Virus record (IMG/VR): IMGVR_UViG_3300023196_003068
Coordinates: 1 to 64,000 of that record
DNA from: a virus
Reading direction: 5' to 3' (one strand)
Length of the DNA: 64,000 bases
Under the pieces are notes generated by a model. It saw nothing but the letters and a program-made list of their open reading frames with translations, was not told where the DNA came from and did not search any database. Made by a program: the position numbers and the translations under genes. Numbering within the stretch: position 1 is the first letter of the stretch; every line of letters starts with the position of its first letter. Positions 22,539 to 43,898 of this stretch are shown here, piece by piece.

Positions 22539-23096
22539 ATGACTAAATCCAAAATACTAGAAGAATTCACAAAGCACAGGCACGATCATAAAAGCTATGT
22601 GTTTTTATATCCCTTACTACAATTACCAAAAACAATTCTCAAACCTCTAAATACATTTCTATACTTAAATAAAAAGGAAGTGTATAAATATAAATATCTA
22701 TTTGCATTATATCACGAATCATTAGAAAAGATAGAAGAAGCTATGCATATTATAGAGGACAATAACTTTTTTGATTTTAAACTAACAGATAGAGATGGTT
22801 ATATTATAGTTGTATTTATGCTAGAAAACCACTCTATCTATTTTGACAAAATCATGAAAGGAGAATATTCAAAATTAGAGCCTCTTGAAAAGTTATTATT
22901 AAATCAAGCGGGACACCCAATAGCGGCAATAGGTACAAACCCACAACACTTCTATAGGGATTATGCAGACGATATGGACATATCCGAAAGCGACATAGCA
23001 GAAGGGGCTAACTTAATAAACCCTCCTAATATGACTACTGAAATTTTACAAGTAGATAAAAAAGTAATGTCTGACTTTTATAAATACACTAATTAG
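22539..23096 (+). CDS. hypothetical protein (last gene of the + strand block)
   Basis: 185-aa ORF with FLYPLL...GEYSK pattern. Confidence 0.7.
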   Translation: MTKSKILEEFTKHRHDHKSYVFLYPLLQLPKTILKPLNTFLYLNKKEVYKYKYLFALYHESLEKIEEAMHIIEDNNFFDFKLTDRDGYIIVVFMLENHSIYFDKIMKGEYSKLEPLEKLLLNQAGHPIAAIGTNPQHFYRDYADDMDISESDIAEGANLINPPNMTTEILQVDKKVMSDFYKYTN

Positions 23097-30104: not shown

Positions 30105-33100
30105 TTAACATATTTCATCTGGTAAACTGTCTATATCTTCTTGAGTAAGAGCCGTTCCCTTATCTTTTTGTTGATCTGTTATATCTATTGTTCTCGAAGG
30201 TGCCTTTGGCATTCCTTCAGTTATATCAGATGCTCTCCTAAAAGTAAGAGTTATTGTGTAATCTTTAACCACCCTTCCGTCAGGAAGAGTAATAGGAGGC
30301 AAATTATTTCCTTTTGTCGGTGCCATAGGTGTATCATGAGCCATTTCAAATCTTCCTTTTCCATCCATTCCAAAAGTATAAATAGTTCCCGATTTTGTGG
30401 GAATTTCAGTTTTTCTACCCGTCTCAGCCCAAGAAGCCAGGCCAGTAGGATTGCCATTTTTATCTATATCCTCATAAATATTAATAGCATTCCCTACACC
30501 AATGGTATATACAACCACCCCATAGTTTCTTGCAGTTTCACTTTCTGTAGTATCTCTATGTGTAGAAATCTTATCACCAGGTAAATAAATATTACCAATA
30601 ACAGCATCATAATTGGACATATCGATTCCTAAAACTTGCTCCACTTCATCAATTATAGGTTGTAATACAGACAAACCAGGTAATGGATTTCCCTTTTGAT
30701 CTAAACCATGATACGCATATTTGAATCCTGTGGATTTAGTAATACCCTTTCTTTTCATTTCTGCAACCTCAGCATCTCTTGATCTTTTATCATATGAATT
30801 AATTTCCAACTTAGGATCAGCATCCAATTCAATACGTGTCCATCTTAATCCAAACTGAAACATTAGATTGGCTCTCGCACCTATATTCTCTTTAGTTGCT
30901 TGAGCTAGAATTTGAGGCTGAATAAGCTTAATAAATTCCTTCTCCTTTTCTATGGAAGGGTTTGTCTCTGCAACATTCACCCCATAGGCATCAGATATAA
31001 CTCTTACTGGGGTCTTAGGTAGCTTTTTCTTGTATAGATCAAGAATATCCTTCCTATTTCCATCAGTAGCTCCCCACTTCATTTTTTTATTAGATGTAAG
31101 AGAGATAATATTTTCCTTTGGAGTTACTAAATATTTAGCACCTTTATAAGCAACCTGAATAGCTTTAGAATTTAATGGAGTTAAATTTTTCTCGCTAAAA
31201 GATTTTTTAGCCTTAGCACCTTCTTCTTTTAAATTAAGAACTTGCCATGTTCCATTAGTATTTTTCTTAACAGCAATGTACGTAATTCCTTTGGAGTCTT
31301 TAACATACCTACCAACTTCTACAGACAGTTTGTCTTCACTAGTTGTAAGCTTACCTTTAAATGTTGCTTTATATACATCCCTAATAGCTTCTTCTGCATT
31401 AGCAGACATGCCTCTACTACCAATAGCTGCAAAATTATTAGTCAAAATAGGTGTATCAATTGACACAAATTTAGAACCATCCCAAGTATACCATCCTTGT
31501 GGTAAATGTGAATCGGCTTTTTTATTAGGATCATTATACACATATACAGGTTTTCCAGCTTGTATAGCCATTTCTACAGCATACCCAGTACCGCCTTGAA
31601 CAGACTCAGATTTGCTAATTTTTCTTTGCTTATCTTCTGGTTTATATGCATCTTCACTCCAAGTATCCCCCTTTTTTCCAATCGGAGCAACAGCAAATAC
31701 AGCTTCTGAATTAGCAACTTGTGCCCAATTTCTTATTAATCTTGAATCAGACATAGTTTTATACGCATAACCCCACATTTCTTTAGCGGCACTAGCTACT
31801 TTTGTCTTGCCATCCGTTTCAATTTGTGTATTTGTTATATCTACATTACCATAAGGTGCATTTGTTTTAGAAACTTTACCTAAATAATAATGATTGAATT
31901 TAATAGCACCAAATTCCTTAGCTATATCATCCCATATTTTATCTGCGCCAAGAGCTCCACCTGAATGAGCTGTAAAATCTTTAGGATTATTTGTACCCTC
32001 CGGTCGGTCTGCTACAACTTTATTATAAGCATTTATTAATGTTTTTAGAAAATGATTCCCTTTATCTGAAGTCCACCATGTACCTTCTCCTTTTTGATAA
32101 GCTTGAGCATCATCTTTTTCATCGTAAGTATGAATAGATTTTTCCAAGAATTCAAGACCGCCCCGCTCTATTATTTTATCAACTAAGAAAGGATACTGAC
32201 GTAGCTTAGCCTCTATAAGATTAGTAATAAGTTCAAGATTTCTCGAAGTTGTACCTCCTTTGCCTTCTTCTCTTAAATCAAAATAAGCTTCTTCTACGTC
32301 TAAGTAAGGCCTTCCTAGTGGATTACCAGCATAGTTAAGACCTTTATCTAGCTGTAGATAAGTTCCTATAAGTTTACCCTTAGATTTTGAAGACTTTCCT
32401 CTAGGATTATAATGAGTAGGATTAGTAAGAGCTGCTCCCAATGGATCATTAGAACCACTAAATATATTTACACCCTTAACACTAGTTGATTGGGAAGGTG
32501 CTACATCATTAATAAAATAATCCAATACAGTAGCGTGAGATGGGCCACCAATATTTTTATAATATTCAATTGGTAAACCTCTTAACTTTCCTTTCTTAAA
32601 AGCCTCTAATAAAGCCGTTCTATACTCTTGCTCCATAGTTGTATGCATTGTGCCTTGAAGCCACCCTATAAATTCTTGAGCTCCTCTTCCTGGTTTATTA
32701 GGATCCGCTGATATCGGATTTCCTATAGCGTTATACTGTTGAAATGATTTTAAGAAACCTAATTTCTTATTAACCCTAAATGCAGTAACAACTTTTTTAT
32801 TCCTAGTATTTTTAAAAATCCTTAAATGACCTGTTGTTTCATCCACTCCTTCTACAATCACAACCTTTCCGCGAATAGTCTTACCCCCAAGCTTATTCCA
32901 TACTTCCATGATTTTAGCAGAAAACTTGTCCTTTCCTACAGAAATACTCTTTTGATTTTTAAGTTTTGCAATTTCGGTATTTCGATAAACAGTCCTAACT
33001 TCCATTAAGACCTTCTCTAACATTGTAGAATATGGACTAACACCTATTTCTATAGGCCCATCAGTATTTGCAAGTCGATCAAAGAAGTCAGATTTTTTGT

Positions 33101-36100
33101 CACCATGATTCTTGAATTTATCCTTTACCTTTTGCTTCATATCATTAGCAACCTCAATAATAGATTCATTCGTTATAAGATCATCAGCTGACCTACTGTT
33201 TATCTCTTTTGAAAGAGCCTCATTAAACAAATAATCTAAGCCAAGATAATCCAACTTAACAGGAGCCTTATTAGGATCAAATAAATTATTTACTGAAAGA
33301 TCTTTGTCATTTGTCCACTCCATGTACTTACCAATTGGAGCATATCTAGGAATCGCTACCCAGCCTTTTTCTTTAAGAAAGTCAGACGCTAATTGCTCAA
33401 TTCCAGAATCTTTAAGACCTATATTAAAACGAGCCCCGGCTTTCATGGCTTTTTTAATTTTAGGTAAATAGTGTGTCTTAAACACTGCTTCAATTTCTTT
33501 TTGATACCCCTCTTCCTTAAGATCATGGGCTTCTTTAGCTCTAAACGTATTGTTACCAAACACCCAAACAACATCCTCTGAGCTAAATTTAGTTTTACTA
33601 TGAGCTAATCGCTCCTTATAATCCCCTGCTTCAATTATTCCTATATATTTAGAAGTAGTACTTCTTGGTATGCCCGAAAGCTCAACATCTTTCCCAATAG
33701 CTACTGTAGAAGCATTAGCCATTGCTTCATCTCTAGAAGTATCCTTTGCTCTTGCTCCCTCGATAGTCGCTATAGATATATTATCTGGTGTTTGACCAAG
33801 AGATAGATCAACGAGATATGGAACTGATTTTCTATTGTCTATACCAAATTCAGTAAGTAGCATTTGATCAAGTTCTTCTTGAATAACACCCTCCGGAGCA
33901 TCTATTTTTCTATCTAGAATATATATCTCCTCTCCTTTTAGTTCTTCTATAAAATCCAAATCAAGGCTATTACCTTTAAACCATTGATGATCATAAACCT
34001 GAATTGAATCAGACGGCAACTCATTAAAATTATTTACAATCTGAACATTATTATACGTCAGAGATTTAACAACATGAGTCTCAATTGTAACACCCAAATC
34101 ATCTTTCATGTAATTTATACCCCTACTCATTATCCTTGAAGCATTCTCCTTGCTAAGAAGCCCATCATATATTGCAGTAAATAGGTCTATATACCCTATG
34201 GATTCTAAAGGAGTTCCGCTTGCCTTAGCTTTCTCTGCCGCCTTCAATGCTCGAATTACTCTCTCTGCTTTAATCCCTTCCTCAATAACATTCCAAAGCT
34301 TATATTGGTTGATGATTTTTGTTAACGCATATTTAGCACCAGTATTTAAACCAGTTTGCATTATAGCCATATTCCCAAACTTATTAAAAAAATCAGCAAC
34401 AGCTGGTATTCTATGAGCTTTAAGTGCAATAAGATTTTCACGATAAATTCTAGCCATATCTGCATCCTTAATATCGGAAAGGAATATATTAGTTTTGCGA
34501 AGATCTATGGCATAATCAAAACGCAAATCTTGTATTAAACTAAAATTTTCACGCAACTCAGGATGCTTTTGCATAAGCCTTCTTAATATTGATGCTCTGC
34601 CCATTCTGAAATCAAACATTGCTACAGGATCATCGGACCGATATAATGCTGCTTTATATAAAAGTGCAACTCTAGTAAATGTCCCACTAGAATAACTATT
34701 AAACTGGTATAAATGTTTTTGAACCTCCTCATTGCTCATATCTTTAGTTTCCTCCTCTAATTTTGCAAACTCTATTGAGAACCGAACAAATTGATTTCTA
34801 CCTCCCGGTGGAAACATTTGGGATAAATCTGAAGATATATAATCCGCACCAAAAAGAATAGTACTAACTCTTTGTTGCGCTTCATCCATCCACTTACTTC
34901 CAAAGGTAATTTTTTTATCCACCTCATTAATAACCAAAGGATCTGAACTCCCCTGAACTTCTTCTAATGCATACCCATCATAGCTTTCTGAATTAAATAA
35001 AGAGTTCTGATATAAGAATAGTGTGAAATCATTCTTAAACTTATTTCTAGTGACTTGTGGGATAATGCCTGGCGGGGAGTTTATTTCAAATGACTTCTCG
35101 ATAACAATAGGATTGTTACGTAAAGCAAAATATTTACTAAACAACTCTATTATAAATTGATCATTATCAAAGATACCAACAGGAGAAAATTCTATTTCGT
35201 CAAACCATAGATTAGGAATAGCTGATTGCTTACTTTTAAACTTAGTAGTTCTTGTTATGCGGTTTGTCGCTTCAGAAATACTCCTTATTTTTTGAGTGTC
35301 AAACTTTGTTAAATCTTGAAATGTCTGAAGGTCTAATGCCAAATCTTCAATCTCAAGATAATGAGAAAATATCTTAAACTGTTCAAAAGAAAAAGCTCCT
35401 TTACCATCTACTGCTTTAAGCCCCTCATCCAACAAGTCTTTAATTACACTAAAGTCTAAATTACCATCTAATAATGCACTAACTTTCTTGTATTCAGATG
35501 CCTTCCATTCTCTTTCATCTTTAAAACCATCTCCCTCTTTAAACCAATCAAACATTGCATACCGAGCCTTGCTTAATATTTTTGACCTCTCCACAATAGG
35601 ACTCACTCCAAACTCATCACTAAGATTACTAAAGACACCAGAAAGCTCTGCCTTTATTTTGTTATACTTAACAATCATTGGCATCGAAACAAAGTATGCA
35701 ATATCCTTAATACTCATTCCGGCCATAACCATAAGCAAAAGCTGTGGAGTATTCTCTTTATTTCCTTGAATTTTAAATATCCATGGGTTAGTTGCAACAT
35801 CTACATACCCATTAACTAATTGCCCAAGAACTTGTGATATAGGTAACCCGTCCATATTCTTAGCCATAGCGAGTGATATTGCACCATTCGCCTTATTGTG
35901 CTTAAACTTAATGGTATAATCAGTAAACTCAAATATAACCTTATTGGCAATATCTATTTGAGCCTTTGTAGATTTATCATTTTCTAATACCTCAATAGCC
36001 TTTGCGTGTTCTCGCTTTTCTTTTTCAGTAGCAGTATTAAGTGTTGCTCCAAATCTTGTAAATAAAGCATAATATGTCGTAGCAATAGCGGCTATACCCA

Positions 36101-39100
36101 GAGCATCTATTCCTATAGAATTATCTTGTTGTTTTTGTAGATTCATTCTATAGTCTAAGACAGTAGACCTTGCTATATCTGTTCCTGCTTCTTTATCTAA
36201 TCGGTTGAATTCATTAAAGCTTTTTTCTATAAGGGCATATGCCTGGTCAGCTAAACTTCTTAAATCAGTTTCTTCTTGAGCTTTAGTTTTACGCTTTTTC
36301 TTTTTTGTCTTACCCTCTACCTTCTCTTCAGTCTTTCCTTCTGTAAATAGATCGGTTTTATTTGGACGAATAAGAGCTTCAAAATTATTACTCATAGTAA
36401 TTCTATCCTTGAAAGATTTTAAAAGCTCATTTTCTAAGCCTCCCATTCCTTTATTAAATAGCTTTCTTAATACTCTTCCCTTTTTAACTTTAAGATCTTC
36501 AGCTTTATCATATAAACCATTAATCTCCGCTCTATAATTATCTTTAATCTTTTCAATTGTTGCGGTTTCCTCTGAAGTAAAAACTATTTCAGCTAGAGCT
36601 ATATCAAGTCTTTCATCAAATACGGCAATACCTTCATCAATAGCCTGTTGTATCTCAGAAATACGCGATGATGTATATGCATGCACATTTCTTTGTTGCT
36701 TACGAGTATAATTTTTAAAATTACCTACACTATTATAAACATCACTTGCATATTGCAAAGTCTCCACCATTTGCATCTCAAGCTTCTCCATTTGAATAGC
36801 ATACTGCGGGAATTTAGCTCTTATAATCCCCTCAATATCTTTAATACTTTCATTAACCTTCTTTAGCTCATTTATTCTTCTTGTTTTAGCATCCTTTATC
36901 TGATCATAAACATCATTTATTTTAGTAGAGTATCCATCAATACTTTTCCCTAACTTCTCAAAACTTTCAGAAACCTTTTTGTGTACCTGCATTTCAACAC
37001 TTCCATTTATTGAAACTATATTTGGAAACATTGTAAACAGCTTATCAAAATCAAAATCTGAACCTGTTTTTGCGACTATCTCTGAAGGGACAACAACGAT
37101 AGGACCAACGGACTCTGGTAAGAACTGCTTAACTACCATTGCCTCTAGTGTGTTTTCTTCTGCTGTAGGTATACGTGGCCCTGCAATAGTAAGCATATCT
37201 TCATACTTAGCGAACCATTCCTTGTCACGCAAAGCACTATTTAATCGAGCTAAAGAAGCCTGACTATCTATAATGTCCTTGCCTGACTTAGCATCCTTTA
37301 CTCTTACAGTAATATCTTGACCATCGGGATGCTTTAATTTTAATAGATGCTTGAATTTACCTTGAAGGCCAATCTTAACCTCCATCTTAGATATCTTATA
37401 ATCAGCCCAAGCTCCCTCTCTTTCGTCTTTTATAAAGTTCCCATCTGCATCTTTTAAGTAGTAACTCTTAAGATCTCCGGCACTTAATATATCTCCAAAT
37501 TTTTCTATGTCTTCTGCTGTAGGCCCTTCAAAAGATTCCTGCATTGCTCCAGTAACCTGAACCAAAGGCTCACCATTAACCTCTATTCCCCGAAGCTTCT
37601 TGTCAACCATTACTGTAAGAATCTTCTCTATTTTTTCAGCAACCAAAGAAATAGATAAATCATCTATCATTTCTCCACTACCATCCTGTTTTGATATAAA
37701 CTGAACCTCTTCTGGAAGTAAATCTTCTTTCTCTAATTGTGATTGAATATAGATTAATAGCTTTTTTGTATCCCCTTTATAAGTTTTTTTCTCTTTACCT
37801 TCAACCCAGGTAATTTCTTCTTCCATTCCTATATCAAAAAGTAAATCTTCTTTAAGTTTTACTTCCATCCGATGAAGAATATCCTCATAGTTGGTTAACC
37901 ACTTGTAATTTGGAGATTTATTCTCTTGTTCTTTTTCAGATAAACTATCCCAATTTTCCTCTATAACTTTCCATTGCTTTGCAGTACCATTAAAATCAGT
38001 CGGCACACCACCCTCCATAATGCCCAATAGAACTAATTTTCTCCATTGTGTTGGCAGTGTAGTGTAGCCCTTATATCCACTCTGAGTTCTAATCTGATCC
38101 CTAAGCCACCTAACATGAATTTTATTTATAGTAAAGGGAGCATCTGTTATTTCTCTTTCTTTGTTGTAAACATCATCAGCCTTAGCATCTTCTATCGCAT
38201 TTTTATTTATACTACCATCTGAATTTTTTCCTTTTATAGTTACAATAGTGGAAAGTTTAGAGCCTGTCTCCATGGTAACATAATGAACACCATCTTCCAT
38301 CATTTTTTCATGAAGCTTTTCTAATTTAGTCCCTGCATAAGCAGTAGGAATGATTGGTGCTAATGAGTACTTATGAAAGCCCCTCATCTGTAGACCATAA
38401 TTATTGTTATCTTCATTTGAGATGTTCCCATTGTATTGAAACTTCCTAACAGGAAACGTAACCTTTAAGTCTGCCGGCTCAAGAGTCTCTCCCTTAAGGA
38501 TTTTTTGATAAACAGACTCCTGGCTAGCCTCACCTGTAGTCGTCCAATTATTAGAAGCCATCGATAGGATCCGATATGTATCAAATGTTATCCATCCTTG
38601 AGCATCAGCCTCCTCTATTCCTTCATAATTTTCTTTTTTAGTACCACCCAGTTTTTCGTATTGGTCTTTAAAATAAGAATCATGCTCAGACTCTTTAATT
38701 ATTCCTGTATTTAAATGACCATCAAACGTAGTCTCCTTAAATGTTTTGCCAATTGCCTTCATGTGCTTTTTGGCAAACCCATTCATTTCAAATACATTAT
38801 TTTTCTCAGTGTTTATATAGTTATACCAGCTTTGATCAAACCGAAACATGTCTCCTGTAGAGATAACCCCCGCATTACGTTTGTGGAAATTTCCAGCTGC
38901 AACTTCATAAATGGCTAAATCTCCAACAAACATTGTAACATAGTTAACATTGTTGATGTAATTGTTTATGATCATTGCCCTAAACATCCTCTCCTTAGTA
39001 GTGGCTACTTCTTCTTTATCATTTTTTCGATACTCTTCAATCTTATTTTCTGCAATTTTAACGTCTCCCTTCTCCTTAAGTAGCTCCTCAGATCGTTTTT

Positions 39101-42100
39101 CAAAATATCTTTTTAAGTCTTTTTCAATTTCCTTTTTTTCCGAAAAAGAAAGCGTAGAATCTAATGTAAAAGATGTATCAATATTTCTTTCCAAAAGTCT
39201 CTTTTGTACATCATCGCTTAACAATAAATCAAACATGTGAAGATCCTCTCCTCTTTCTAAAAATCCCTTATCAAACTTAACGGTCTCACCCTTTTCAATA
39301 CGAGCCTTGATAGCCTTAATGCGTGCTATACGAACTAACTCCCCCTCCAGGTGTCCTTGAAATTGATTATATAGTATTAATGAATTAATCGGACTCTTAA
39401 GGTCGTCATACTCTTCAGAAAAAATATGATTTATCTCATTCATACTTACAACCAATCCTTTTCGTGGATTAATTTCTCCTTTAACTTTAACCGGAGCAAA
39501 TACAGTAGCAGATGTAGCCTTTGCTTCAGATCGTGGTATCTCCTGACGAGCCGCCAATGTTAAATACATATCAGATATAAACTTGGTATTCTCATCTGAT
39601 GAAATAGCCTCTATTCCTTTTTCTTCTCTTCCATACCTTACCTTAGAGCCTGATAAAGTTTCATGTGTAATATTAATAGCTGGATTACGCTCCCCTCTTT
39701 TATCACCTTCAATATCCAATTGAAACATTTGAATAAACCAAGTATTACCTGCTATAGCCGGATTAGTTTCAACATTAAATCCCTCCATACCAGGAATGCC
39801 TATTAATTCATCATAACTCTTTGCGTTATTTAAGGTAGCAGCCTGGATTGTCATCGATGAATGCTTCGTCTTTTCAGACATGCGTTCATTATTTGCATTG
39901 AATTCAGTAAAATTTACATACTCATCAGAAAGATGTTGTGCTAACTGTACGATTTGTTCATAATACCCACTAACATCTGGCTGTGTTCGCTTCTCATTAT
40001 TGGGGTCTATATAATCAAATGATTTAAAAAGACTCTCAAGGTCGTATATACGAGAAACTTTCTCCGAAGCAAACTCACCTCGTAACTTAATGGATTCTAT
40101 AATATAGTGAAGAACCCCCTTACCAATTCCCAATTCCTCATACCCTTTTTCAAGAGCATCTCTTACCTCAATGGTTTCAGGTAACTCAATTCCTATAATC
40201 TTTAATAAAGGAAAAGGATCTGCCAACCATTGTTTGCGATGAAAAGGTTCGTAATCATAATTTACATCTTTTTCTTTGTGAAACAACTCACCAGATGCAT
40301 TTATAGGAACATGAACCATAGTTTCAAAGCTCTCTATTACACCCATTAAATCATAAGTTTCTAGGTATTGACGATTATCTGCTTCATCTGTTGCGTAAAT
40401 AGACCATTCGTTTATTTCAGATTGATTTCTAAAGTTATCCCGCCATTGTCCTTTAATGATTGCAGCATTCCCTTTTGGCTTACCTACAATTGACTCCCAT
40501 CGAACACTCTCAGTCGCTTCATCTTCTATCTTTTCTAATGAATGATAAGTAAGACGATTTGTTGCTTTAGCTATAGATTGCCACAATGCTCCCCACTGAA
40601 CTTGCTCAACTGTTTTAATATCCGCAGATTGCAAATCACCCATTACCTTTAGCACCTGTCTTATTTCATGGTCAAACTTTGCTGCTTCTTTAAGTGCGTT
40701 ATAAATATCATCTGCATCTACGCGATTTCCTACTATTTTAACAAGCTTCCCTAATATTGTCTTAAAAGGGAGTGGCTGCGGAAGACCCAGGCGATTTGGT
40801 TTATATTTATCACTTCTTCCTTGTCTTTTATATGAAGGAATCCCACTCAATAAATGTCGGGTAAGATCATTTGCCGACTCAGTAATTGAAAATTCAGCTC
40901 CCGTCCGATCAAAAACATGTCTTAAGCGAGCATCTGTTTCATCATCCGTAAGCTCCTCAATATTTTGAACCTCCTCATTGAAAGTGTAAAAATCAGCATA
41001 GTTGTTTAGGAATAGTCCAATTATTGTATTATTGTCATCTTTAAAAGTATTAATCGAAGCTTCGGTATCTCCAAAAGAATCTAAAATTTTATCCAATAAT
41101 GCCACCTTCTCAGCTTCCACTATAGATAAAACATTCATCCCGTTCATGTATATTTGTCGCTTTGTTTTAAATACATTCTCCATGTACTTAAAAGCTGCTG
41201 CTAAAATAGAAGGCTCTTGCACAACTCTTAAATATCCAAGACCATTCCTAATACTAGTCTTTCCCAGGTGACCATCAAGTAACTTATTTGCTTCTTTATA
41301 GTTTTTATTAAACTCAGGATCGCTTACATCTAAAGATGATAACTGGGTAAGCAATTCAATCGCTTTTAGATTTGACTCAGGAGTAGCTCCTGTATTTAAT
41401 GCTGTTACTACAAATCTATGCATCAATGCTTTCATTGATGTCATGGTTATATTAACATCATCAAAACTTAAATCTACATCCTTCCCAAGCTCAAAGCTAG
41501 AGTAATATGTTTCCGGATCATTGGGAATCTCAAATTTAGATATATCAATATTTCCTTCGTATAAATCTTTAAAGATGGCATTAACTTTTGGGCCAAACTT
41601 ATTAAGAGTAGTAACTTCGTTTACTGTTGTTTTACCAAAGAATTTTTTTAATTGAGCCAACAACTTCGCAAAGAACTTAGCAACTTTAGATTTTGGCTTT
41701 TTATTAAAGGCACTACGATTAGTAGCATATTTACGAAATTCCTCTGCTAAATACTCTTCTATTTCTAAATCTGTAGCATCTTTAAAGTTTAATGTCTTAG
41801 CCTTTCCTAAAACCGTTACTGTAAATTGACCACCAAGACCCCTAACCTCTTTATAAATTTCAGCAACTTCCTCTTTAGTTAATATGGAATCAGTAAGACC
41901 ATGCCATGATTCATGGTATATATCTGTTTTTTGCGAACCAGAATATAGTGTAATTAATCCCGCTATATAATCAGCCACATATTTTGGTCCCTTTTCATGA
42001 ACCTTATCCTTAATTTGAAGGCGTATAACTTTTCTTAAAGGATTATCTTCTGATTTCCACCATCTATCTGCAGCATCATCTTGTTCTTTAGTAGATTTTC

Positions 42101-43898
42101 CTCGTTTGTTATGCTCCGATATTGTTCTAAAAAGTAAATCTTTTGCTTCTTCGTCGGTTTTTTCTTCTATCTCCGTAGATGCCTCTATAGAGGAAAATGA
42201 TAAATAAGAACCATGGCCTCTAATCTCTCCTTTATCATTGGGAACTTGTGTAATATAACCATTATCACTAATAAACGCTGCTCTATCTTTTTCGACTATT
42301 GTTATTTCATTATCCTTAATAGAACCTACAACCCTAACCTTATCTGTTAATGTTACCCCACGATATAAACCAAAATTAATTTCTGGTTTACGAGCCATCA
42401 TTATTCTATCCCCATCTCTAAATATTTGATTATGAAAGGTTACATTCTCTAATCCATTTACAAGCTCATAATCTTTAGGAAGATCTTGATGATAATCAAA
42501 TGGTACAAGCTTTTGCGTCCACTCAATAAAGGTTTCTTTAAAATTCTCAAAATTAACCGGAGAACCATTCCTGAACACGATTGCCCTAGAATCACCCAGG
42601 ACTACTGATGTAATTCTTATGCCATCATCTTTAATTGTAAAAGGTATCTCGTGTTTTATATTGCTACTCGCTCTAAACTGAATAAAATTAGTAATAAGCC
42701 TTTTCCTTTCAATTAATGGCAAAGGATTACCATCTATTTTTAAATCAGGATTTACTATTAGCTCTGCAATATAATCAAGTTCCTTTTCGGATAACTGATC
42801 TAAAGGTTTATTGTGTATTCTAGCAGGTGCCGATGATCTAGGAACTTTCAGTACTGGAAAATTGGATTTACCTATAGATGCAATAGTCAGCACAGTCTCA
42901 CTAATATTTCTAATACTCCCTATAGGAGTTTGTGTATTGTGATCCCTTGCAACAAACCCGATGCTACTAGCATTCATGTTTAAATGAAAGAATACATTTT
43001 TCTCAGCCAAAAGCTTTCTTGAAGTATTCAACATTGCGATATGATTATCTATCTCTGCATTAACAAGTTTTGATGCATCCTCCGGGCTTAATGGTTCTTC
43101 TTTTCTATTCACAAGTGAATCAATTTTAGATTCAATAGTTACCTTATACTCAGCCTTGCTTACTCTTATAGGAAAAGCAGGAATCTTACCATTAACATCA
43201 GGGTTTCCTTGTTCATCGAACTTAACTATATTGCCATCCTTATCAACTAACACCATCACCGGGCGAGACAAATCATCCTTTGGATACTTATAACTAATAT
43301 CAGAGTTAAGATTAGCTTGTTCAATGGTCATCATTTTAAACCTATACCCCTTGCTATTGTTAGAATTAATTACAGAAGTCTGAACAGCAATTTCAAATAC
43401 CTTTTCCTGGTCTGGTACATTCTTGGAATATTGAAAATCTGCATCCCACTCAGACTCCTGGCTAATAGTCTTAGCAAAAGAACGAGATATTGCGTTATAC
43501 GAAAGAGGAGCCATTGGTGCTACTGTAATGCCGCCAACTCCTAGTGAGCTAACTATACCAGTAATTATGTTCTGAAAGTCCTCTTTAGATGGTTGTTGAG
43601 AAGCCTTATATATCTCAGTTCTTTTTTTGTTTATCTCTCCAACAAGAGTCTTCTCATTAATTGCCGGGTTCTTTAGGATATACTGCGTAAGTATTTCAGG
43701 CAGAATTGTGAAGTGCTGAATAAGAGTTTCTTGATTATCAAGCTTAGTCTCAGATAGATTAAAATCCTTAAGGGCTTTCTGATAAAGTTCTCTTTGAATT
43801 TCATCATACGTCTTCTCGTTGGAAATTATATTCTCCAAATTATTTGTGAAGTAAGTCCCAAAAAGATTAATTGACCTAGAAGTTATACAAACATTCAT
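30105..43898 (-). CDS. virion RNA polymerase (crAss-like, single-chain double-psi beta-barrel) polyprotein with zincin and C-terminal accessory domains
   Basis: 4597 aa; RIPT...FLP...VVPSEIVAKTGSDFDFDKL (catalytic DxDxD at 37044-37058), EADAQGW, KYSLAP; zincin HESWH (41901-41915)...EEYLAEEF. Confidence 0.92.
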   Translation of the reverse strand: MNVCITSRSINLFGTYFTNNLENIISNEKTYDEIQRELYQKALKDFNLSETKLDNQETLIQHFTILPEILTQYILKNPAINEKTLVGEINKKRTEIYKASQQPSKEDFQNIITGIVSSLGVGGITVAPMAPLSYNAISRSFAKTISQESEWDADFQYSKNVPDQEKVFEIAVQTSVINSNNSKGYRFKMMTIEQANLNSDISYKYPKDDLSRPVMVLVDKDGNIVKFDEQGNPDVNGKIPAFPIRVSKAEYKVTIESKIDSLVNRKEEPLSPEDASKLVNAEIDNHIAMLNTSRKLLAEKNVFFHLNMNASSIGFVARDHNTQTPIGSIRNISETVLTIASIGKSNFPVLKVPRSSAPARIHNKPLDQLSEKELDYIAELIVNPDLKIDGNPLPLIERKRLITNFIQFRASSNIKHEIPFTIKDDGIRITSVVLGDSRAIVFRNGSPVNFENFKETFIEWTQKLVPFDYHQDLPKDYELVNGLENVTFHNQIFRDGDRIMMARKPEINFGLYRGVTLTDKVRVVGSIKDNEITIVEKDRAAFISDNGYITQVPNDKGEIRGHGSYLSFSSIEASTEIEEKTDEEAKDLLFRTISEHNKRGKSTKEQDDAADRWWKSEDNPLRKVIRLQIKDKVHEKGPKYVADYIAGLITLYSGSQKTDIYHESWHGLTDSILTKEEVAEIYKEVRGLGGQFTVTVLGKAKTLNFKDATDLEIEEYLAEEFRKYATNRSAFNKKPKSKVAKFFAKLLAQLKKFFGKTTVNEVTTLNKFGPKVNAIFKDLYEGNIDISKFEIPNDPETYYSSFELGKDVDLSFDDVNITMTSMKALMHRFVVTALNTGATPESNLKAIELLTQLSSLDVSDPEFNKNYKEANKLLDGHLGKTSIRNGLGYLRVVQEPSILAAAFKYMENVFKTKRQIYMNGMNVLSIVEAEKVALLDKILDSFGDTEASINTFKDDNNTIIGLFLNNYADFYTFNEEVQNIEELTDDETDARLRHVFDRTGAEFSITESANDLTRHLLSGIPSYKRQGRSDKYKPNRLGLPQPLPFKTILGKLVKIVGNRVDADDIYNALKEAAKFDHEIRQVLKVMGDLQSADIKTVEQVQWGALWQSIAKATNRLTYHSLEKIEDEATESVRWESIVGKPKGNAAIIKGQWRDNFRNQSEINEWSIYATDEADNRQYLETYDLMGVIESFETMVHVPINASGELFHKEKDVNYDYEPFHRKQWLADPFPLLKIIGIELPETIEVRDALEKGYEELGIGKGVLHYIIESIKLRGEFASEKVSRIYDLESLFKSFDYIDPNNEKRTQPDVSGYYEQIVQLAQHLSDEYVNFTEFNANNERMSEKTKHSSMTIQAATLNNAKSYDELIGIPGMEGFNVETNPAIAGNTWFIQMFQLDIEGDKRGERNPAINITHETLSGSKVRYGREEKGIEAISSDENTKFISDMYLTLAARQEIPRSEAKATSATVFAPVKVKGEINPRKGLVVSMNEINHIFSEEYDDLKSPINSLILYNQFQGHLEGELVRIARIKAIKARIEKGETVKFDKGFLERGEDLHMFDLLLSDDVQKRLLERNIDTSFTLDSTLSFSEKKEIEKDLKRYFEKRSEELLKEKGDVKIAENKIEEYRKNDKEEVATTKERMFRAMIINNYINNVNYVTMFVGDLAIYEVAAGNFHKRNAGVISTGDMFRFDQSWYNYINTEKNNVFEMNGFAKKHMKAIGKTFKETTFDGHLNTGIIKESEHDSYFKDQYEKLGGTKKENYEGIEEADAQGWITFDTYRILSMASNNWTTTGEASQESVYQKILKGETLEPADLKVTFPVRKFQYNGNISNEDNNNYGLQMRGFHKYSLAPIIPTAYAGTKLEKLHEKMMEDGVHYVTMETGSKLSTIVTIKGKNSDGSINKNAIEDAKADDVYNKEREITDAPFTINKIHVRWLRDQIRTQSGYKGYTTLPTQWRKLVLLGIMEGGVPTDFNGTAKQWKVIEENWDSLSEKEQENKSPNYKWLTNYEDILHRMEVKLKEDLLFDIGMEEEITWVEGKEKKTYKGDTKKLLIYIQSQLEKEDLLPEEVQFISKQDGSGEMIDDLSISLVAEKIEKILTVMVDKKLRGIEVNGEPLVQVTGAMQESFEGPTAEDIEKFGDILSAGDLKSYYLKDADGNFIKDEREGAWADYKISKMEVKIGLQGKFKHLLKLKHPDGQDITVRVKDAKSGKDIIDSQASLARLNSALRDKEWFAKYEDMLTIAGPRIPTAEENTLEAMVVKQFLPESVGPIVVVPSEIVAKTGSDFDFDKLFTMFPNIVSINGSVEMQVHKKVSESFEKLGKSIDGYSTKINDVYDQIKDAKTRRINELKKVNESIKDIEGIIRAKFPQYAIQMEKLEMQMVETLQYASDVYNSVGNFKNYTRKQQRNVHAYTSSRISEIQQAIDEGIAVFDERLDIALAEIVFTSEETATIEKIKDNYRAEINGLYDKAEDLKVKKGRVLRKLFNKGMGGLENELLKSFKDRITMSNNFEALIRPNKTDLFTEGKTEEKVEGKTKKKKRKTKAQEETDLRSLADQAYALIEKSFNEFNRLDKEAGTDIARSTVLDYRMNLQKQQDNSIGIDALGIAAIATTYYALFTRFGATLNTATEKEKREHAKAIEVLENDKSTKAQIDIANKVIFEFTDYTIKFKHNKANGAISLAMAKNMDGLPISQVLGQLVNGYVDVATNPWIFKIQGNKENTPQLLLMVMAGMSIKDIAYFVSMPMIVKYNKIKAELSGVFSNLSDEFGVSPIVERSKILSKARYAMFDWFKEGDGFKDEREWKASEYKKVSALLDGNLDFSVIKDLLDEGLKAVDGKGAFSFEQFKIFSHYLEIEDLALDLQTFQDLTKFDTQKIRSISEATNRITRTTKFKSKQSAIPNLWFDEIEFSPVGIFDNDQFIIELFSKYFALRNNPIVIEKSFEINSPPGIIPQVTRNKFKNDFTLFLYQNSLFNSESYDGYALEEVQGSSDPLVINEVDKKITFGSKWMDEAQQRVSTILFGADYISSDLSQMFPPGGRNQFVRFSIEFAKLEEETKDMSNEEVQKHLYQFNSYSSGTFTRVALLYKAALYRSDDPVAMFDFRMGRASILRRLMQKHPELRENFSLIQDLRFDYAIDLRKTNIFLSDIKDADMARIYRENLIALKAHRIPAVADFFNKFGNMAIMQTGLNTGAKYALTKIINQYKLWNVIEEGIKAERVIRALKAAEKAKASGTPLESIGYIDLFTAIYDGLLSKENASRIMSRGINYMKDDLGVTIETHVVKSLTYNNVQIVNNFNELPSDSIQVYDHQWFKGNSLDLDFIEELKGEEIYILDRKIDAPEGVIQEELDQMLLTEFGIDNRKSVPYLVDLSLGQTPDNISIATIEGARAKDTSRDEAMANASTVAIGKDVELSGIPRSTTSKYIGIIEAGDYKERLAHSKTKFSSEDVVWVFGNNTFRAKEAHDLKEEGYQKEIEAVFKTHYLPKIKKAMKAGARFNIGLKDSGIEQLASDFLKEKGWVAIPRYAPIGKYMEWTNDKDLSVNNLFDPNKAPVKLDYLGLDYLFNEALSKEINSRSADDLITNESIIEVANDMKQKVKDKFKNHGDKKSDFFDRLANTDGPIEIGVSPYSTMLEKVLMEVRTVYRNTEIAKLKNQKSISVGKDKFSAKIMEVWNKLGGKTIRGKVVIVEGVDETTGHLRIFKNTRNKKVVTAFRVNKKLGFLKSFQQYNAIGNPISADPNKPGRGAQEFIGWLQGTMHTTMEQEYRTALLEAFKKGKLRGLPIEYYKNIGGPSHATVLDYFINDVAPSQSTSVKGVNIFSGSNDPLGAALTNPTHYNPRGKSSKSKGKLIGTYLQLDKGLNYAGNPLGRPYLDVEEAYFDLREEGKGGTTSRNLELITNLIEAKLRQYPFLVDKIIERGGLEFLEKSIHTYDEKDDAQAYQKGEGTWWTSDKGNHFLKTLINAYNKVVADRPEGTNNPKDFTAHSGGALGADKIWDDIAKEFGAIKFNHYYLGKVSKTNAPYGNVDITNTQIETDGKTKVASAAKEMWGYAYKTMSDSRLIRNWAQVANSEAVFAVAPIGKKGDTWSEDAYKPEDKQRKISKSESVQGGTGYAVEMAIQAGKPVYVYNDPNKKADSHLPQGWYTWDGSKFVSIDTPILTNNFAAIGSRGMSANAEEAIRDVYKATFKGKLTTSEDKLSVEVGRYVKDSKGITYIAVKKNTNGTWQVLNLKEEGAKAKKSFSEKNLTPLNSKAIQVAYKGAKYLVTPKENIISLTSNKKMKWGATDGNRKDILDLYKKKLPKTPVRVISDAYGVNVAETNPSIEKEKEFIKLIQPQILAQATKENIGARANLMFQFGLRWTRIELDADPKLEINSYDKRSRDAEVAEMKRKGITKSTGFKYAYHGLDQKGNPLPGLSVLQPIIDEVEQVLGIDMSNYDAVIGNIYLPGDKISTHRDTTESETARNYGVVVYTIGVGNAINIYEDIDKNGNPTGLASWAETGRKTEIPTKSGTIYTFGMDGKGRFEMAHDTPMAPTKGNNLPPITLPDGRVVKDYTITLTFRRASDITEGMPKAPSRTIDITDQQKDKGTALTQEDIDSLPDEIC
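30230..30985 (-). other. AlkB-like 2OG-Fe(II) dioxygenase domain within the vRNAP ORF
   Basis: AVIGNIY..GDKISTHRD (HxD at 30552-30560), YTIG, SGTIYTFG, AHD (distal His), ITLTFRR. Confidence 0.8.
31360..31980 (-). other. circularly permuted SLOG (YpsA-like) domain within the vRNAP ORF
   Basis: HSGGALGAD, RNWAQVANSEAVFAV, GGTGYAVEMA...GKPVYVY, C-terminal NFAAIGSR. Confidence 0.75.
32015..32478 (-). other. NADAR (YbiA-like) domain within the vRNAP ORF
   Basis: LTNP, DVEEAY, AKLRQYPFL, WW...GNHFLKTL match the NADAR LSNF / E..Y / KF.Q...L / W...G.N.LG..L layout. Confidence 0.65.

What the first reader, a model, noticed from the sequence alone, without database searches (positions are those of the whole stretch)
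30105..33750. Virion RNA polymerase carries a C-terminal string of putative counter-defence enzymes (SLOG-like, DUF4326-like, NADAR, permuted SLOG, AlkB)
Seen: after the RNAP core, the 4597-aa ORF continues in frame for about 1,200 aa as beads on a string. The order is a weak SLOG-like alpha/beta unit (about 33745-33355), a DUF4326-like unit (GNP...EFIGWL...SHATVL, about 32800-32510), NADAR (32478-32015), a permuted SLOG (31980-31360), a small beta-rich unit (about 31330-31030) and an AlkB-like dioxygenase (30985-30230). Known: crAss-like vRNAPs are packaged and delivered with the genome; some NADARs remove ADP-ribose from guanine (DarT1 antitoxins, T4 gp30.3); SLOG domains bind nucleotide signals (ThsA); AlkB repairs alkylated bases. 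Inference: the phage injects a ready-made toolkit tethered to the enzyme that first reads its DNA. It could erase DNA ADP-ribosylation or alkylation and intercept nucleotide alarm signals before any phage gene is expressed. This is the best candidate for an undescribed system in the window.
Basis: partly seen in the sequence, partly recalled or inferred. Interest (0 to 1): 0.9.

Follow-up and report, generated by a model that had tools for sequence, protein, structure and literature searches.

The report
Enzyme toolkit on virion RNA polymerase
The giant RNA polymerase that this crAss-type phage probably injects with its DNA ends in a string of swappable enzyme domains (an ADP-ribose remover, a nucleotide-binding SLOG domain, an AlkB demethylase and others) that probably undo host defence marks or DNA damage early in infection; the principle is already published, but I found this build in no paper.

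Summary
ORF 30105-43898 (minus strand, 4597 aa) is a crAss-type virion RNA polymerase homologue: it has a DFDFD motif and a tblastn match to phi14:2 g066.

Module identities:
- **NADAR:** fold-level and profile support. VIA Z 8.3/8.2/5.7 to the three NADAR structures, next row 3.5. hhalign gives 94.9% to Pfam-positive NADAR modules. It is the phage type, with His at the Glu125 position as in T4 AdfN.
- **SLOG:** best match is 3IMK (Z 11.7), followed by LOG, DprA and YpsA. The motif order is circularly permuted.
- **AlkB-like:** the HxD...H triad is invariant in 104/104 relatives.
- **DUF4326-like:** plausible only, on motifs and sub-threshold hits.
- **First unit:** the "SLOG-like" call is not supported.
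- **Small beta unit:** a real mobile module of unknown function.

In 120 giant relatives the same modules occur in other orders and sets. The same SLOG module also sits in an N4-like virion RNAP and in a classified Crassvirales RNAP.

This is a polyvalent protein in the sense of Iyer et al. 2017. It carries the known viral DUF4326/NADAR/SLOG ADP-ribose-processing set plus AlkB. Injection and counter-defence are inferred, not shown. The scan found the same theme on at least five other genomes.

The parts
30105..43898 (-). Whole 4597-aa ORF (P0001): crAss-type virion RNA polymerase giant with a polyvalent C-terminal tail
   Evidence: ORF list and translation. 179 giant relatives of 2.5-5.5 kaa.
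41901..41915 (-). HExxH motif (HESWH, residues 662-666), candidate zincin-like metallopeptidase site
   Evidence: An HExxH occupies this position in 74 of 81 aligned relatives. The phi14:2 gp65 orthologues carry a zincin-like protease and are fused to the RNAP in some phages (preprint 10.1101/2020.03.07.982082). The Pfam MPTase-PolyVal model gave no match.
35199..42101 (-). Conserved core (residues ~600-2900) shared with most giant relatives
   Evidence: BLAST coverage profile. tblastn of residues 1500-2900 hits phi14:2 g066 'Catalytic RNA polymerase subunit' (E 2e-6) and crAssphage RNAP genes.
37044..37058 (-). DFDFD (residues 2281-2285), the DFDxD catalytic motif of crAss-type RNAPs
   Evidence: Regex on P0001. 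The motif is described for all crAss-like vRNAPs. DFDxD is present in 102 of 120 relatives.
32949..34001 (-).
   Evidence: Shared by only 6 relatives. No Pfam or NCBIfam hit. No free-standing relatives in the word-index search of near-length proteins. ESM look-alikes are unnamed clusters at 0.92-0.93. hhalign to the S family gives 0.7%.
32499..32921 (-). D module (residues 3660-3800), DUF4326-like, with GNP 3726-3728, W3746-L3747 and PSHATVL 3786-3792
   Evidence: The family is well conserved and includes free-standing and D+NADAR proteins. The AF2 model is confident, with 10-residue-block pLDDT 82-96 over model residues 1-140. 3 of 10 family members give sub-threshold Pfam DUF4326 hits at E 0.006-0.052. 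Eight DUF4326-named proteins appear among the weak BFVD rows. No solved-structure match was obtained.
32004..32480 (-). NADAR module (residues 3807-3965), phage type: E3869, R3876, H3923, W3941/3942
   Evidence: VIA-align gives 8bau_A Z 8.3 (rmsd 3.0, 118 aligned), 2b3w Z 8.2 and 8bat_A Z 5.7, with the next row at 3.5. hhalign to Pfam-positive NADAR modules gives 94.9%, E 4.7e-8, 94 columns. The residue roles come from PMC11543638 and PMC11825919.
31344..31988 (-). S module (residues 3971-4185), circularly permuted YpsA-like SLOG: HSGGALGAD 3978-3986, R4056-N4057, GGTGYAVEMA 4102-4111, FAAIGSR 4156-4162
   Evidence: PHROG 768 'DprA-like' matches at E 1.3e-6. AF2 pLDDT is 88.9. VIA-align gives 3imk_A Z 11.7 (143 of 158 residues aligned), then LOG-like, MCP, DprA, YpsA and ShosA at Z 5.5-6.4. 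Foldseek ranks 3imk first at prob 0.94. The motif order is seen in alignment A4.
31029..31331 (-).
   Evidence: It recurs as an independent block in 18 relatives at varying positions. No family hit.
30177..31010 (-). AlkB-like Fe(II)/2-oxoglutarate dioxygenase module (residues 4297-4574): H4447, D4449, H4521, T-F-R-R 4552-4555
   Evidence: Pfam PF13532 scores 22.1 bits here against a cut-off of 31.2. Weak NCBIfam AlkB hits. The aligned modules of relatives reach the cut-off (P0003 31.2 bits, P0006 32.3 bits). The triad and the RR pair are invariant in the family alignment, and the first Arg of R-x5-R is Thr in 92 of 105 rows.

Best explanation
The gene encodes a crAss-type virion RNA polymerase whose C-terminal ~1300 residues form a polyvalent effector array. 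The array is a chain of independently folding, evolutionarily exchangeable domains.

Four domains can be named. One is a DUF4326-like unit, said in the literature to belong to the rhodanese-phosphatase superfamily. One is a phage-type NADAR ADP-ribosyl-glycohydrolase. One is a circularly permuted YpsA-like SLOG nucleotide-binding or nucleotide-processing domain. One is an AlkB-type Fe(II)/2-oxoglutarate dioxygenase. Two further units (N, B) are of unknown function.

Because crAss-type vRNAPs are packed in the capsid and ejected with the DNA, the array most likely enters the cell before any phage gene is expressed. The NADAR, SLOG and DUF4326-like set would remove ADP-ribose from DNA bases (DarT1-type guanine modification). 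It could also bind and degrade ADP-ribose-derived signal molecules. AlkB would oxidatively remove alkyl or methyl groups from single-stranded template DNA or nascent RNA. A conserved N-terminal HExxH site may cut the giant into pieces after delivery.

Shown here: the domain boundaries, the NADAR and SLOG folds, the AlkB iron triad, homology of the core to known vRNAPs, and module shuffling among relatives. Inferred: packaging of the tail, enzymatic activity, substrates and any counter-defence effect.
For: - **Core is a vRNAP homologue.** It has DFDFD at 2281 and tblastn matches to phi14:2 g066 and crAssphage RNAP genes. phi14:2 gp66 and the crAss001 RNAP-associated proteins are virion proteins, and gp66 is translocated with the DNA.
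- **NADAR.** The three solved NADARs are the top three of 48,161 chains, at Z 8.3/8.2/5.7 against 3.5 for the next row. hhalign gives 94.9% to Pfam-positive NADAR modules, while all other module pairs give 3.8% or less. The Glu and Lys/Arg pair with +7 spacing is kept. His at the Glu125 position is the signature of T4 AdfN-type phage NADARs, which defeat DarTG1.
- **SLOG.** 3imk scores Z 11.7, and the next eight rows are all LOG-type, Mo-carrier, DprA-type (including ShosA) or YpsA proteins, which I take to be SLOG-superfamily members. Foldseek agrees.
- **AlkB.** The HxD...H triad is invariant in 104/104 relatives, and modules of relatives pass the Pfam cut-off.
- **Exchangeable cargo.** Among 120 relatives A occurs in 102, S in 59, a NADAR in 48, D in 22, B in 18 and N in 6. 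Orders vary. Modules lie downstream of DFDxD in 95 proteins and upstream in 10.
- **Other tail domains in relatives.** These include ART-PolyVal, SF1 helicase, RNase H and Zeta/AAA_33 kinase.
- **The two NADAR types never co-occur.** The count is 0 of 48, Fisher p 0.0035, uncorrected for relatedness. This fits one functional slot.
- **The same S module sits in other virion RNAPs.** It is inside the unrelated N4-type virion RNAP of Klebsiella phage Pylas (residues 982-1158, E 2e-25). It is also at the C-terminus of the RNAP giant of Crassvirales cr109_1.
- **Published precedent.** Viral DUF4326, SLOG and NADAR domains are often fused and are predicted to process ADP-ribose derivatives. Polyvalent injected proteins are a known theme.
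Against: - No data show that this tail is in virions. Crassvirus cargo must pass the tail partly unfolded, and a 4597-aa chain with six extra domains is a heavy load.
- The preprint on phi14:2 expects fused giants to be cleaved, so the tail could be removed before packaging.
- None of the four named modules reaches its Pfam cut-off in this protein.
- In the NADAR module the phosphate-binding Lys is Arg here. In E. coli C7 NADAR, K95R kept activity in vitro but failed to rescue cells from DarT1.
- The first Arg of AlkB's R-x5-R is Thr, so 2-oxoglutarate binding may differ.
- From my memory of the Pfam DUF4326 consensus, its Cys residues are Tyr and Ser in the D family. The D fold has no solved-structure match so far.
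- No DarT-, Thoeris- or alkylation-type defence of the unknown host is known.
- Iyer et al. favour soluble ADP-ribose derivatives over DNA adducts as targets of viral NADARs, so the substrate is open.
Confidence: 0.55

Rival explanations
1. The modules are template and transcript maintenance tools rather than counter-defence. The tail serves the polymerase itself. AlkB and NADAR clean lesions that block transcription, such as alkyl adducts gathered while the virion sits in the environment or base ADP-ribosylation. They would act on the single-stranded template that the vRNAP reads. The SLOG, which is DprA-like, holds single-stranded DNA.
For: phi14:2 gp66 transcribes single-stranded or denatured DNA in vitro. 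DarT1 and NADAR act on ssDNA. DprA proteins are among the structural matches of the S module. AlkB is by far the most widespread tail module, in 102 of 120 relatives, and 30 relatives have it with none of the other five modules defined here. From general knowledge, AlkB domains embedded in replicase polyproteins of plant RNA viruses repair methylation damage.
Against: A housekeeping add-on would be expected at a fixed place and in a fixed set. Here content and order change between relatives, and the tails also carry ART-PolyVal, helicase and kinase domains. The only tested phage NADAR of this His type is a counter-defence factor.
Confidence: 0.2
2. The giant is a polyprotein and the tail is not delivered. 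It would be cleaved, perhaps by the HExxH domain, during assembly. The tail enzymes would stay in the producing cell and act late, for example on progeny DNA or the nucleotide pool, rather than being injected.
For: The HExxH motif is conserved in 74 of 81 relatives. The literature expects fused crAss giants to be cleaved into components. The same modules exist as free-standing small genes.
Against: Cleavage does not exclude packaging. All three proteins of the phi14:2 and crAss001 block are found in virions. An N4-type virion RNAP carries the same S module internally, at residues 982-1158 of 3819. That position is hard to reconcile with a discarded tail.
Confidence: 0.12
3. The modules process the 5' ends of nascent RNA or NAD-derived caps. 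They would act on the polymerase's own transcripts by removing NAD or ADP-ribose-type caps or ends. The phosphatase-like D unit and the kinases seen in relatives would heal ends, and AlkB would demethylate the RNA.
For: Iyer et al. mention NAD-capped RNA products as possible substrates and propose that DUF4326 processes terminal phosphates on ribose. A D-family protein is fused to an AAA_33/Zeta-type kinase (P0223), and kinases occur in related tails.
Against: No cap-related or RNA-binding domain was identified. Modules can lie far from the polymerase core on either side. This has no direct support.
Confidence: 0.08

Closest known systems
Polyvalent proteins of phages and conjugative elements (Iyer, Burroughs, Anand, de Souza, Aravind 2017, PMC5512222)
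   Same: Many enzymatic domains of unrelated chemistry sit in one virion-associated polypeptide that is predicted to be injected with the DNA. A zincin-type protease theme is present. Relatives of this protein carry the Pfam ART-PolyVal domain.
   Different: That paper does not mention NADAR, AlkB, SLOG, DUF4326 or crAss-like phages. Here the scaffold is the two-barrel crAss-type RNAP.
Cellulophaga phage phi14:2 gp66 virion RNAP with gp65 (zincin) and gp67; crAss001 gp47/gp49/gp50
   Same: The DFDxD motif and local sequence homology are shared. The gene lies in a block of giant genes. The N-terminal HExxH resembles the gp65 zincin, which is fused to the RNAP in some phages.
   Different: gp66 has 2180 residues and no reported NADAR, SLOG or AlkB tail. 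The flanking giants of this window have no detectable match in the phage collection.
T4 AdfN (gp30.3) and DarT1-associated NADAR antitoxins (PMC11825919, PMC11543638)
   Same: The NADAR fold is shared. The Glu and basic residue pair with +7 spacing is kept. His replaces the otherwise conserved Glu, as in AdfN-type phage NADARs.
   Different: AdfN is a free-standing protein made after infection. Here the domain is part of a virion polymerase, the Lys is Arg, and no Pfam NADAR, NADAR-DarT1 or Phage_30_3 model matches.
Viral DUF4326 / SLOG / NADAR / Macro fusions predicted to process ADP-ribose derivatives (PMC7824862, PMC9503650)
   Same: The same three domain kinds are adjacent in one chain. 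The viral SLOG is of the YpsA-like clade. S and NADAR co-occur in relatives (odds ratio 2.9).
   Different: Those authors describe the viral versions as typically free-standing outside RNA-virus polyproteins. Here they are joined to a polymerase and to AlkB.
PDB 3IMK 'putative molybdenum carrier protein'; from memory, the structure behind Pfam cpYpsA (PF12694)
   Same: It is the best structural match of the S module, at Z 11.7 with 143 of 158 residues aligned in sequence order. The glycine-rich loop comes first and the G-x-R strand last.
   Different: Identity is only 18%. The Pfam cpYpsA model does not match this protein, and matches 2 of 29 family members only weakly at E 0.018.
N4-like virion RNAP of Klebsiella phage Pylas (gp65) and the RNAP giant gp53 of Crassvirales cr109_1
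   Same: Both carry the same S module, at 36% and 35% identity.
   Different: Pylas has a T7-like single-subunit RNAP and the module lies internally. The cr109_1 gene is annotated only as 'DprA-like' and needs a reassigned stop codon. Neither shows the other modules of this tail.
E. coli AlkB and AlkB domains in plant RNA-virus replicases (general knowledge)
   Same: The HxD...H triad and the terminal Arg of the 2-oxoglutarate site are kept. As in the plant viruses, the domain is embedded in a viral polymerase polypeptide.
   Different: The first Arg of R-x5-R is Thr, and a ~20-residue insert lies between the second His and the TFRR motif. The fold was not modelled here.

Membership tests
crAss-type virion RNA polymerase | DFDxD catalytic motif | tested here: met
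   DFDFD lies at residues 2281-2285. The motif is defined.
crAss-type virion RNA polymerase | Sequence homology to an experimentally characterised member | tested here: met
   tblastn to phi14:2 g066 gives E 2e-6 and to crAssphage RNAP genes E ~1e-8, around the motif. phmmer against PDB sequences found nothing.
crAss-type virion RNA polymerase | Two double-psi beta-barrels in one chain | not tested
   The core was not modelled.
crAss-type virion RNA polymerase | Present in virions and ejected with the DNA | not testable with these tools
   Known only for phi14:2 and crAss001.
NADAR superfamily | NADAR fold | tested here: met
   8bau_A Z 8.3, rmsd 3.0, 118 aligned. 2b3w Z 8.2. 8bat_A Z 5.7. Next row 3.5. 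The match covers the whole module.
NADAR superfamily | Score above the Pfam PF08719 gathering cut-off | tested here: not met
   No hit in hmmscan of the piece at E up to 10 or in the genome search. PF22397 and PF08010 also gave none.
NADAR superfamily | Profile-level homology to bona fide members | tested here: met
   hhalign of 126 sequences against 28 Pfam-positive modules gives 94.9%, E 4.7e-8, 94 columns. Controls gave 3.8% or less.
NADAR superfamily | Conserved Glu and Lys (PnNADAR E43/K50) and the E125-position residue | tested here: met
   E3869 is present. R3876 stands in place of Lys, which is Lys in the family consensus. H3923 is at the E125 position, as in phage NADARs. The mapping is by alignment, not by superposed side chains.
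NADAR superfamily | ADP-ribosyl-glycohydrolase activity | not testable with these tools
   Needs an enzyme assay.
SLOG superfamily, circularly permuted YpsA-like branch | Rossmann-like SLOG fold | tested here: met
   3imk scores Z 11.7. TM1055, MCP, three DprA chains, YpsA, ShosA and TT1887 score Z 5.4-6.4. Foldseek ranks 3imk first at prob 0.94, E 0.023.
SLOG superfamily, circularly permuted YpsA-like branch | Glycine-rich loops (GGxxGxD and GGT...E) | tested here: met
   HSGGALGAD at 3978-3986 and GGTGYAVEMA at 4102-4111. GGT is invariant in A4.
SLOG superfamily, circularly permuted YpsA-like branch | Permuted order, with the G-x-R first strand moved to the C-terminus | tested here: met
   FAAIGSR at 4156-4162 follows all other motifs. 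The alignment to 3imk runs in sequence order over 143 of 158 residues. That 3imk represents cpYpsA is from memory.
SLOG superfamily, circularly permuted YpsA-like branch | Score above a Pfam SLOG-family cut-off | tested here: not met
   No Pfam hit for this module. Family members give only weak hits: DNA_processg_A in 3 (best E 0.0098), cpYpsA in 2 (0.018), LDcluster4 in 2 (0.052). PHROG 768 'DprA-like' matches at E 1.3e-6.
AlkB-type Fe(II)/2OG dioxygenase (PF13532) | HxD...H iron triad | tested here: met
   H4447, D4449 and H4521 are invariant in 104/104 relatives.
AlkB-type Fe(II)/2OG dioxygenase (PF13532) | R-x5-R 2-oxoglutarate-binding motif | tested here: inconclusive
   The second Arg is present (R4554, followed by R4555). 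The first position is T4548, which is Thr in 92 of 105 rows.
AlkB-type Fe(II)/2OG dioxygenase (PF13532) | Score above the Pfam cut-off | tested here: not met
   22.1 bits against 31.2 for this protein. The homologous modules of P0003 and P0006 reach 31.2 and 32.3 bits.
AlkB-type Fe(II)/2OG dioxygenase (PF13532) | Double-stranded beta-helix fold with nucleotide-recognition lid | not tested
DUF4326 (PF14216) | Score above the Pfam cut-off | tested here: not met
   No hit for this protein. 3 of 10 family members give E 0.006-0.052 over profile positions 16-66 of 82.
DUF4326 (PF14216) | Fold shared with DUF4326 / rhodanese-phosphatase proteins | tested here: inconclusive
   The confident model gave no solved-structure match, because the NADAR half filled the lists. 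BFVD rows named DUF4326 (8) and tyrosine phosphatase appear only at E 0.67-2.6.
DUF4326 (PF14216) | Association with SLOG, NADAR and Macro domains | tested here: met
   D lies next to NADAR and SLOG here. D+NADAR proteins P0133 and P0140 exist.
Polyvalent proteins (Iyer 2017) | Several domains of disparate activity in one phage polypeptide, variable between relatives | tested here: met
Polyvalent proteins (Iyer 2017) | Zincin-like processing peptidase | tested here: inconclusive
   A conserved HExxH is present. The MPTase-PolyVal model gave no match.
Polyvalent proteins (Iyer 2017) | Delivered into the host with the DNA | not testable with these tools
   Inferred from vRNAP homology only.

The most novel reading that the evidence does not exclude
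Virion RNA polymerases are general delivery vehicles for pre-made counter-defence enzymes. Two unrelated polymerase lineages, the crAss two-barrel type and the N4 T7-like type, have independently acquired the same permuted-SLOG module. In the crAss-type lineage a whole exchangeable set (NADAR, DUF4326-like, SLOG, AlkB, ART, helicase, kinase) rides into the cell tethered to the enzyme that first touches the phage DNA. That set would erase DNA ADP-ribosylation and alkylation in cis and destroy ADP-ribose alarm signals before any phage gene is read. The two NADAR types would fill one mutually exclusive slot tuned to the host's defence.
Probability: 0.3. Interest if true: 0.8.

Novelty: new variant of a known kind. 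Interest (0 to 1): 0.58.

Why it matters
Most known phage counter-defence proteins must be made after infection. That leaves a gap in which DNA-modifying toxins such as DarT, or signal-based systems such as Thoeris, can act first. A kit of ADP-ribose-removing, signal-binding and demethylating enzymes carried in on the virion polymerase would close that gap.

The family is large: 179 giant relatives in one search, with module sets that change between relatives. It therefore offers a natural catalogue of which enzymes phages find worth injecting. That catalogue includes two mobile modules of unknown function (N, B) and a Cys-less branch of DUF4326.

The finding also corrects public annotation. 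A classified Crassvirales RNAP giant is named 'DprA-like recombination mediator' because of this SLOG module.

The claims can be tested directly with virion proteomics on cultured crAss-like or N4-like phages, and with standard assays on the isolated domains.

Tried and rejected
- **Routine family scans.** Single-sequence Pfam, NCBIfam and PHROG scans of the whole protein and of seven pieces gave only weak AlkB hits and one PHROG DprA-like hit.
- **Own-genome searches.** I searched with Pfam NADAR, DUF7831, DUF4326, ART-PolyVal, cpYpsA, NADAR-DarT1, Phage_30_3 and MPTase-PolyVal. All returned nothing, because the first-look stage produced no candidates. I treat this as low sensitivity, not absence.
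- **PDB sequence searches.** phmmer and profile searches for the whole protein, the D+NADAR alignment and the S alignment gave nothing meaningful.
- **Foldseek.** Against PDB and BFVD no row reached E 0.001 for either model. Only VIA-align separated the true folds.
- **D module.** ESM features for the D region pointed to NADAR-type clusters at 0.78-0.82, below the level that counts, and I do not use them.
- **N unit.** The word-index search of near-length proteins found no free-standing relatives. ESM neighbours are unnamed. hhalign shows no link to any other module. I reject 'SLOG-like' as unsupported.
- **Alignment A2.** This first combined alignment misplaced the D sequences. I replaced it with A3 after an offline test.
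- **Locus searches.** IMG/VR searches gave only 3-6 relatives.
- **Other failed searches.** blastn of the tail, and tblastn of the AlkB module and both flanking giants against the phage collection, found no match.
- **Junction repeats.** None of significance occurs here.
- **Papers not held.** Yutin 2018 and Burroughs 2015 could not be read.

Full report
**The gene.** The window holds one uninterrupted reading frame on the minus strand, 30105..43898, encoding 4597 aa (P0001). It sits in a run of co-directional giant genes of 1966, 368, 4597, 2169 and further residues. The record is a 74.4-kb IMG/VR virus contig estimated to be 63% complete.

The middle of the protein (residues ~600-2900) is conserved in most of 120 giant relatives and carries DFDFD at 2281-2285. 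A tblastn of residues 1500-2900 hits Cellulophaga phage phi14:2 g066, annotated 'Catalytic RNA polymerase subunit', at E 2e-6. It also hits the RNAP genes of crAssphage and other Crassvirales around that motif.

DFDxD is the hallmark of the virion-packaged RNAP of crAss-like phages. In phi14:2 this protein is translocated with the DNA and transcribes the early genes. In crAss001 the three RNAP-associated proteins are found in virions. The 'virion RNA polymerase' label is therefore supported by homology. Packaging of this particular protein is not shown.

**The tail is modular.** A search with residues 3380-4597 found 179 proteins of 2.5-5.5 kaa. Their precomputed Pfam content varies: AlkB-type oxygenase, NADAR, DUF7831, ART-PolyVal, SF1/Pif1 helicase, RNase H and Zeta/AAA_33 kinase.

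BLAST and local jackhmmer cut the tail into six blocks, each conserved on its own: N 3300-3650, D 3660-3800, NADAR-like 3807-3965, S 3971-4185, B 4190-4290 and A 4297-4574. In the relatives these blocks occur in many orders, for example S-A-n, n-A-B, A-S-D and P-A-S. They usually lie downstream of the DFDxD motif (95 proteins) and sometimes upstream (10 proteins).

Counts among the 120 relatives:

| Module | Relatives carrying it |
|---|---|
| A (AlkB-like) | 102 |
| S (SLOG) | 59 |
| NADAR of either type | 48 |
| D (DUF4326-like) | 22 |
| B | 18 |
| N | 6 |

The sample was chosen by similarity to this tail, so the frequencies are biased.

In two IMG/VR relatives whose NADAR-like module is 67% and 31% identical to this one, that module lies near the C-terminus of a giant ORF with different neighbours.

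**NADAR.** No NADAR model matches this protein directly. Locally, the module's family (25 members) and the Pfam-positive NADAR modules of other relatives (24 members, for example P0006 3943-4061) form disjoint sets.

Profile-profile comparison links the two sets. With the first alignments it gave 77%. After enrichment with hits of the exhaustive representative search it gave 94.9%, E 4.7e-8, 94 columns. All 20 other pairs of modules scored 3.8% or less.

An AlphaFold2 model of residues 3660-3975, built on a checked 41-sequence alignment, had mean pLDDT 87.7. VIA-align against 48,161 PDB representatives put the three NADAR structures first. These were Phytophthora NADAR with ADP-ribose (8bau_A: Z 8.3, rmsd 3.0, 118 aligned), E. 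coli YbiA (Z 8.2) and the DarT1-associated Geobacter NADAR (Z 5.7). The next row scored 3.5, and the match spans the whole module. Foldseek alone was not significant.

By alignment, E3869 and R3876 correspond to the Glu and Lys that bind ADP-ribose (PnNADAR E43/K50, T4 AdfN E36/K43). H3923 falls where YbiA-type NADARs have Glu125 and phage NADARs have His. T4 AdfN, of this His type, removes ADP-ribose from DNA and defeats DarTG1.

One caveat applies. The Lys is Arg in this protein, and the equivalent K95R mutant of E. coli C7 NADAR worked in vitro but not in cells.

**SLOG.** PHROG 768 'DprA-like' matches residues 3973-4126 at E 1.3e-6. Free-standing relatives of 190-250 aa exist, none with a Pfam name. 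Scanned one by one, a few give weak hits to DprA, cpYpsA and 'SLOG cluster4'.

The family alignment shows HSGGAxGxD first, then RNWAQV...DAvFAI, then GGTGYAvEMA..GKPVYVF. The FAGIGTR strand comes last. This is the order expected for a circular permutation of YpsA/DprA-type SLOG domains.

The AlphaFold2 model has pLDDT 88.9 and pTM 0.88. Its best match is 3imk_A at Z 11.7, with 143 of 158 residues aligned in sequence order. This stands well above TM1055, the Mo-cofactor carrier, three DprA chains, YpsA, ShosA and TT1887 at Z 5.4-6.4. Foldseek also ranks 3imk first, at prob 0.94. From memory, 3IMK is the structure behind Pfam cpYpsA.

**AlkB.** This module scores 22.1 bits on PF13532 against a cut-off of 31.2, and gives weak hits to NCBIfam AlkB models. 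The homologous modules of P0003 (53% identical) and P0006 reach the cut-off.

H4447, D4449 and H4521 are invariant in 104 of 104 family members, as is T-F-R-R 4552-4555. The first Arg of AlkB's R-x5-R is Thr in most of the family. The module is thus an Fe(II)/2-oxoglutarate dioxygenase of the AlkB kind with a variant co-substrate site. Its fold was not modelled.

**DUF4326-like unit.** The D family is well conserved (A-I-G-N-P-F ... F-I-x-W-L ... L-K-G-K-x-I-x-Y-Y-K ... P-S-H-A-T-A-L-D-Y-L-I-N). It occurs alone, with kinases, and as D+NADAR proteins of 300-390 aa.

- Three of ten members give sub-threshold DUF4326 hits at E 0.006-0.052.
- Eight proteins named DUF4326 and two phosphatase-named proteins appear among the weak BFVD rows for the model.
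- No solved structure matched, because the NADAR half dominated the lists.
- From my memory of the Pfam consensus, the Cys residues of DUF4326 are Tyr and Ser here.

I rate homology to DUF4326 at about 70%.

**Unknown units.** The N unit has no family hit, no free-standing relative in the word-index search of near-length proteins, only unnamed ESM neighbours, and 0.7% hhalign probability to the S family. 'SLOG-like' is not supported. B is a real mobile module of unknown function.

**Context in the literature.**
- Iyer et al. 2017 defined polyvalent proteins: multidomain virion proteins injected with the DNA, often with a zincin peptidase. The N4 vRNAP literature is among that paper's references. 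The paper mentions none of NADAR, AlkB, SLOG, DUF4326 or crAss.
- Iyer et al. [quoted passage not shown] They report that viral SLOGs are mostly YpsA-like. They propose that these domains degrade ADP-ribose-derived immune signals. They describe the viral versions as typically free-standing outside RNA-virus polyproteins.
- Yutin et al. 2021 note that the crAss transcription block consists of large multidomain proteins, some with a PD-(D/E)XK nuclease.
- The phi14:2 preprint notes that gp65 (zincin), gp66 and gp67 are fused into one polyprotein in some phages, and that this is probably cleaved.

P0001 has HESWH at 662-666, and an HExxH occupies that position in 74 of 81 relatives. I found no paper combining crAss-like RNAP with AlkB or NADAR.

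**Beyond this family.** The S module also lies inside the virion RNAP of the N4-like Klebsiella phage Pylas (residues 982-1158 of 3819, E 2e-25) and in an Alteromonas N4-like RNAP. It also lies near the C-terminus of the 4328-codon RNAP giant of Crassvirales cr109_1. That gene has DFDID at 3222 and is annotated only as 'DprA-like DNA recombination-mediator protein'. Two unrelated kinds of virion polymerase thus carry the same module, which fits the idea that the polymerase serves as a vehicle.

**Patterns among relatives.** The two NADAR types never occur together (0 of 48; Fisher p 0.0035). S and NADAR co-occur (odds ratio 2.9, p 0.009). These tests ignore relatedness and selection bias and are only indicative.

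**Verdict.** The interpretation as an injected counter-defence kit is the best reading, at about 0.55. It rests on homology and context. Template maintenance for the polymerase itself, or a cleaved tail that is not delivered, remain live rivals.

The thing is a new variant of a known kind: a polyvalent protein with the known ADP-ribose-processing domain set. It is not an undescribed system.

Earlier notes of this scan describe the same theme on at least five other genomes. They agree with this reading. One of them gave me the lead to the gp65 zincin, which I checked in the preprint. Another note concerned the Thr in the AlkB motif, which I confirmed here.

Noticed in passing
window 41901-41915 (minus strand; residues 662-666): An HExxH motif (HESWH) is conserved in 74 of 81 aligned giant relatives. 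It is probably the gp65-type zincin peptidase fused to the RNAP, which would allow self-processing of the giant.
   Followed up: partly
L010:12001-12525 (Klebsiella phage Pylas NC_049444.1, gene gp65): The N4-like virion RNA polymerase carries the same permuted-SLOG module at residues 982-1158 of 3819. An Alteromonas N4-like phage RNAP matches too.
   Followed up: partly
L012:1-12987 (CrAssphage cr109_1 NC_055892.1, KNV50_gp53): The RNAP giant (DFDID at 3222) is annotated 'DprA-like DNA recombination-mediator protein' because of its C-terminal SLOG module. Its frame holds 70 stop codons under table 11, so the phage reads a stop codon as sense.
   Followed up: partly
relatives P0002-P0121: Two sequence types of NADAR module, Pfam-positive and Pfam-negative, occur in 24 relatives each and never in the same protein.
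   Followed up: partly
P0223 (327 aa): A free-standing protein joins an AAA_33/Zeta-toxin-type kinase to the DUF4326-like module. The kinase-plus-phosphatase-like pairing recalls end-healing enzymes.
   Followed up: no
window 23093-28993 and 43898-50407 (minus strand): The giant ORFs flanking the RNAP gene (1966 and 2169 aa) have no PHROG hit and no tblastn match in 50,697 phage records. The upstream one overlaps the RNAP start by one base.
   Followed up: partly
window 14220-16280 (plus strand): A DNA polymerase (PHROG 1252, E 2e-116) is the only neighbour among nine tested that matched a PHROG family. This phage lineage is poorly covered by reference phage families.
   Followed up: no
window 1-22000 versus 22000-64000: GC skew and AT skew change sign near 22-23 kb, where the gene direction switches from plus to minus strand.
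   Followed up: no
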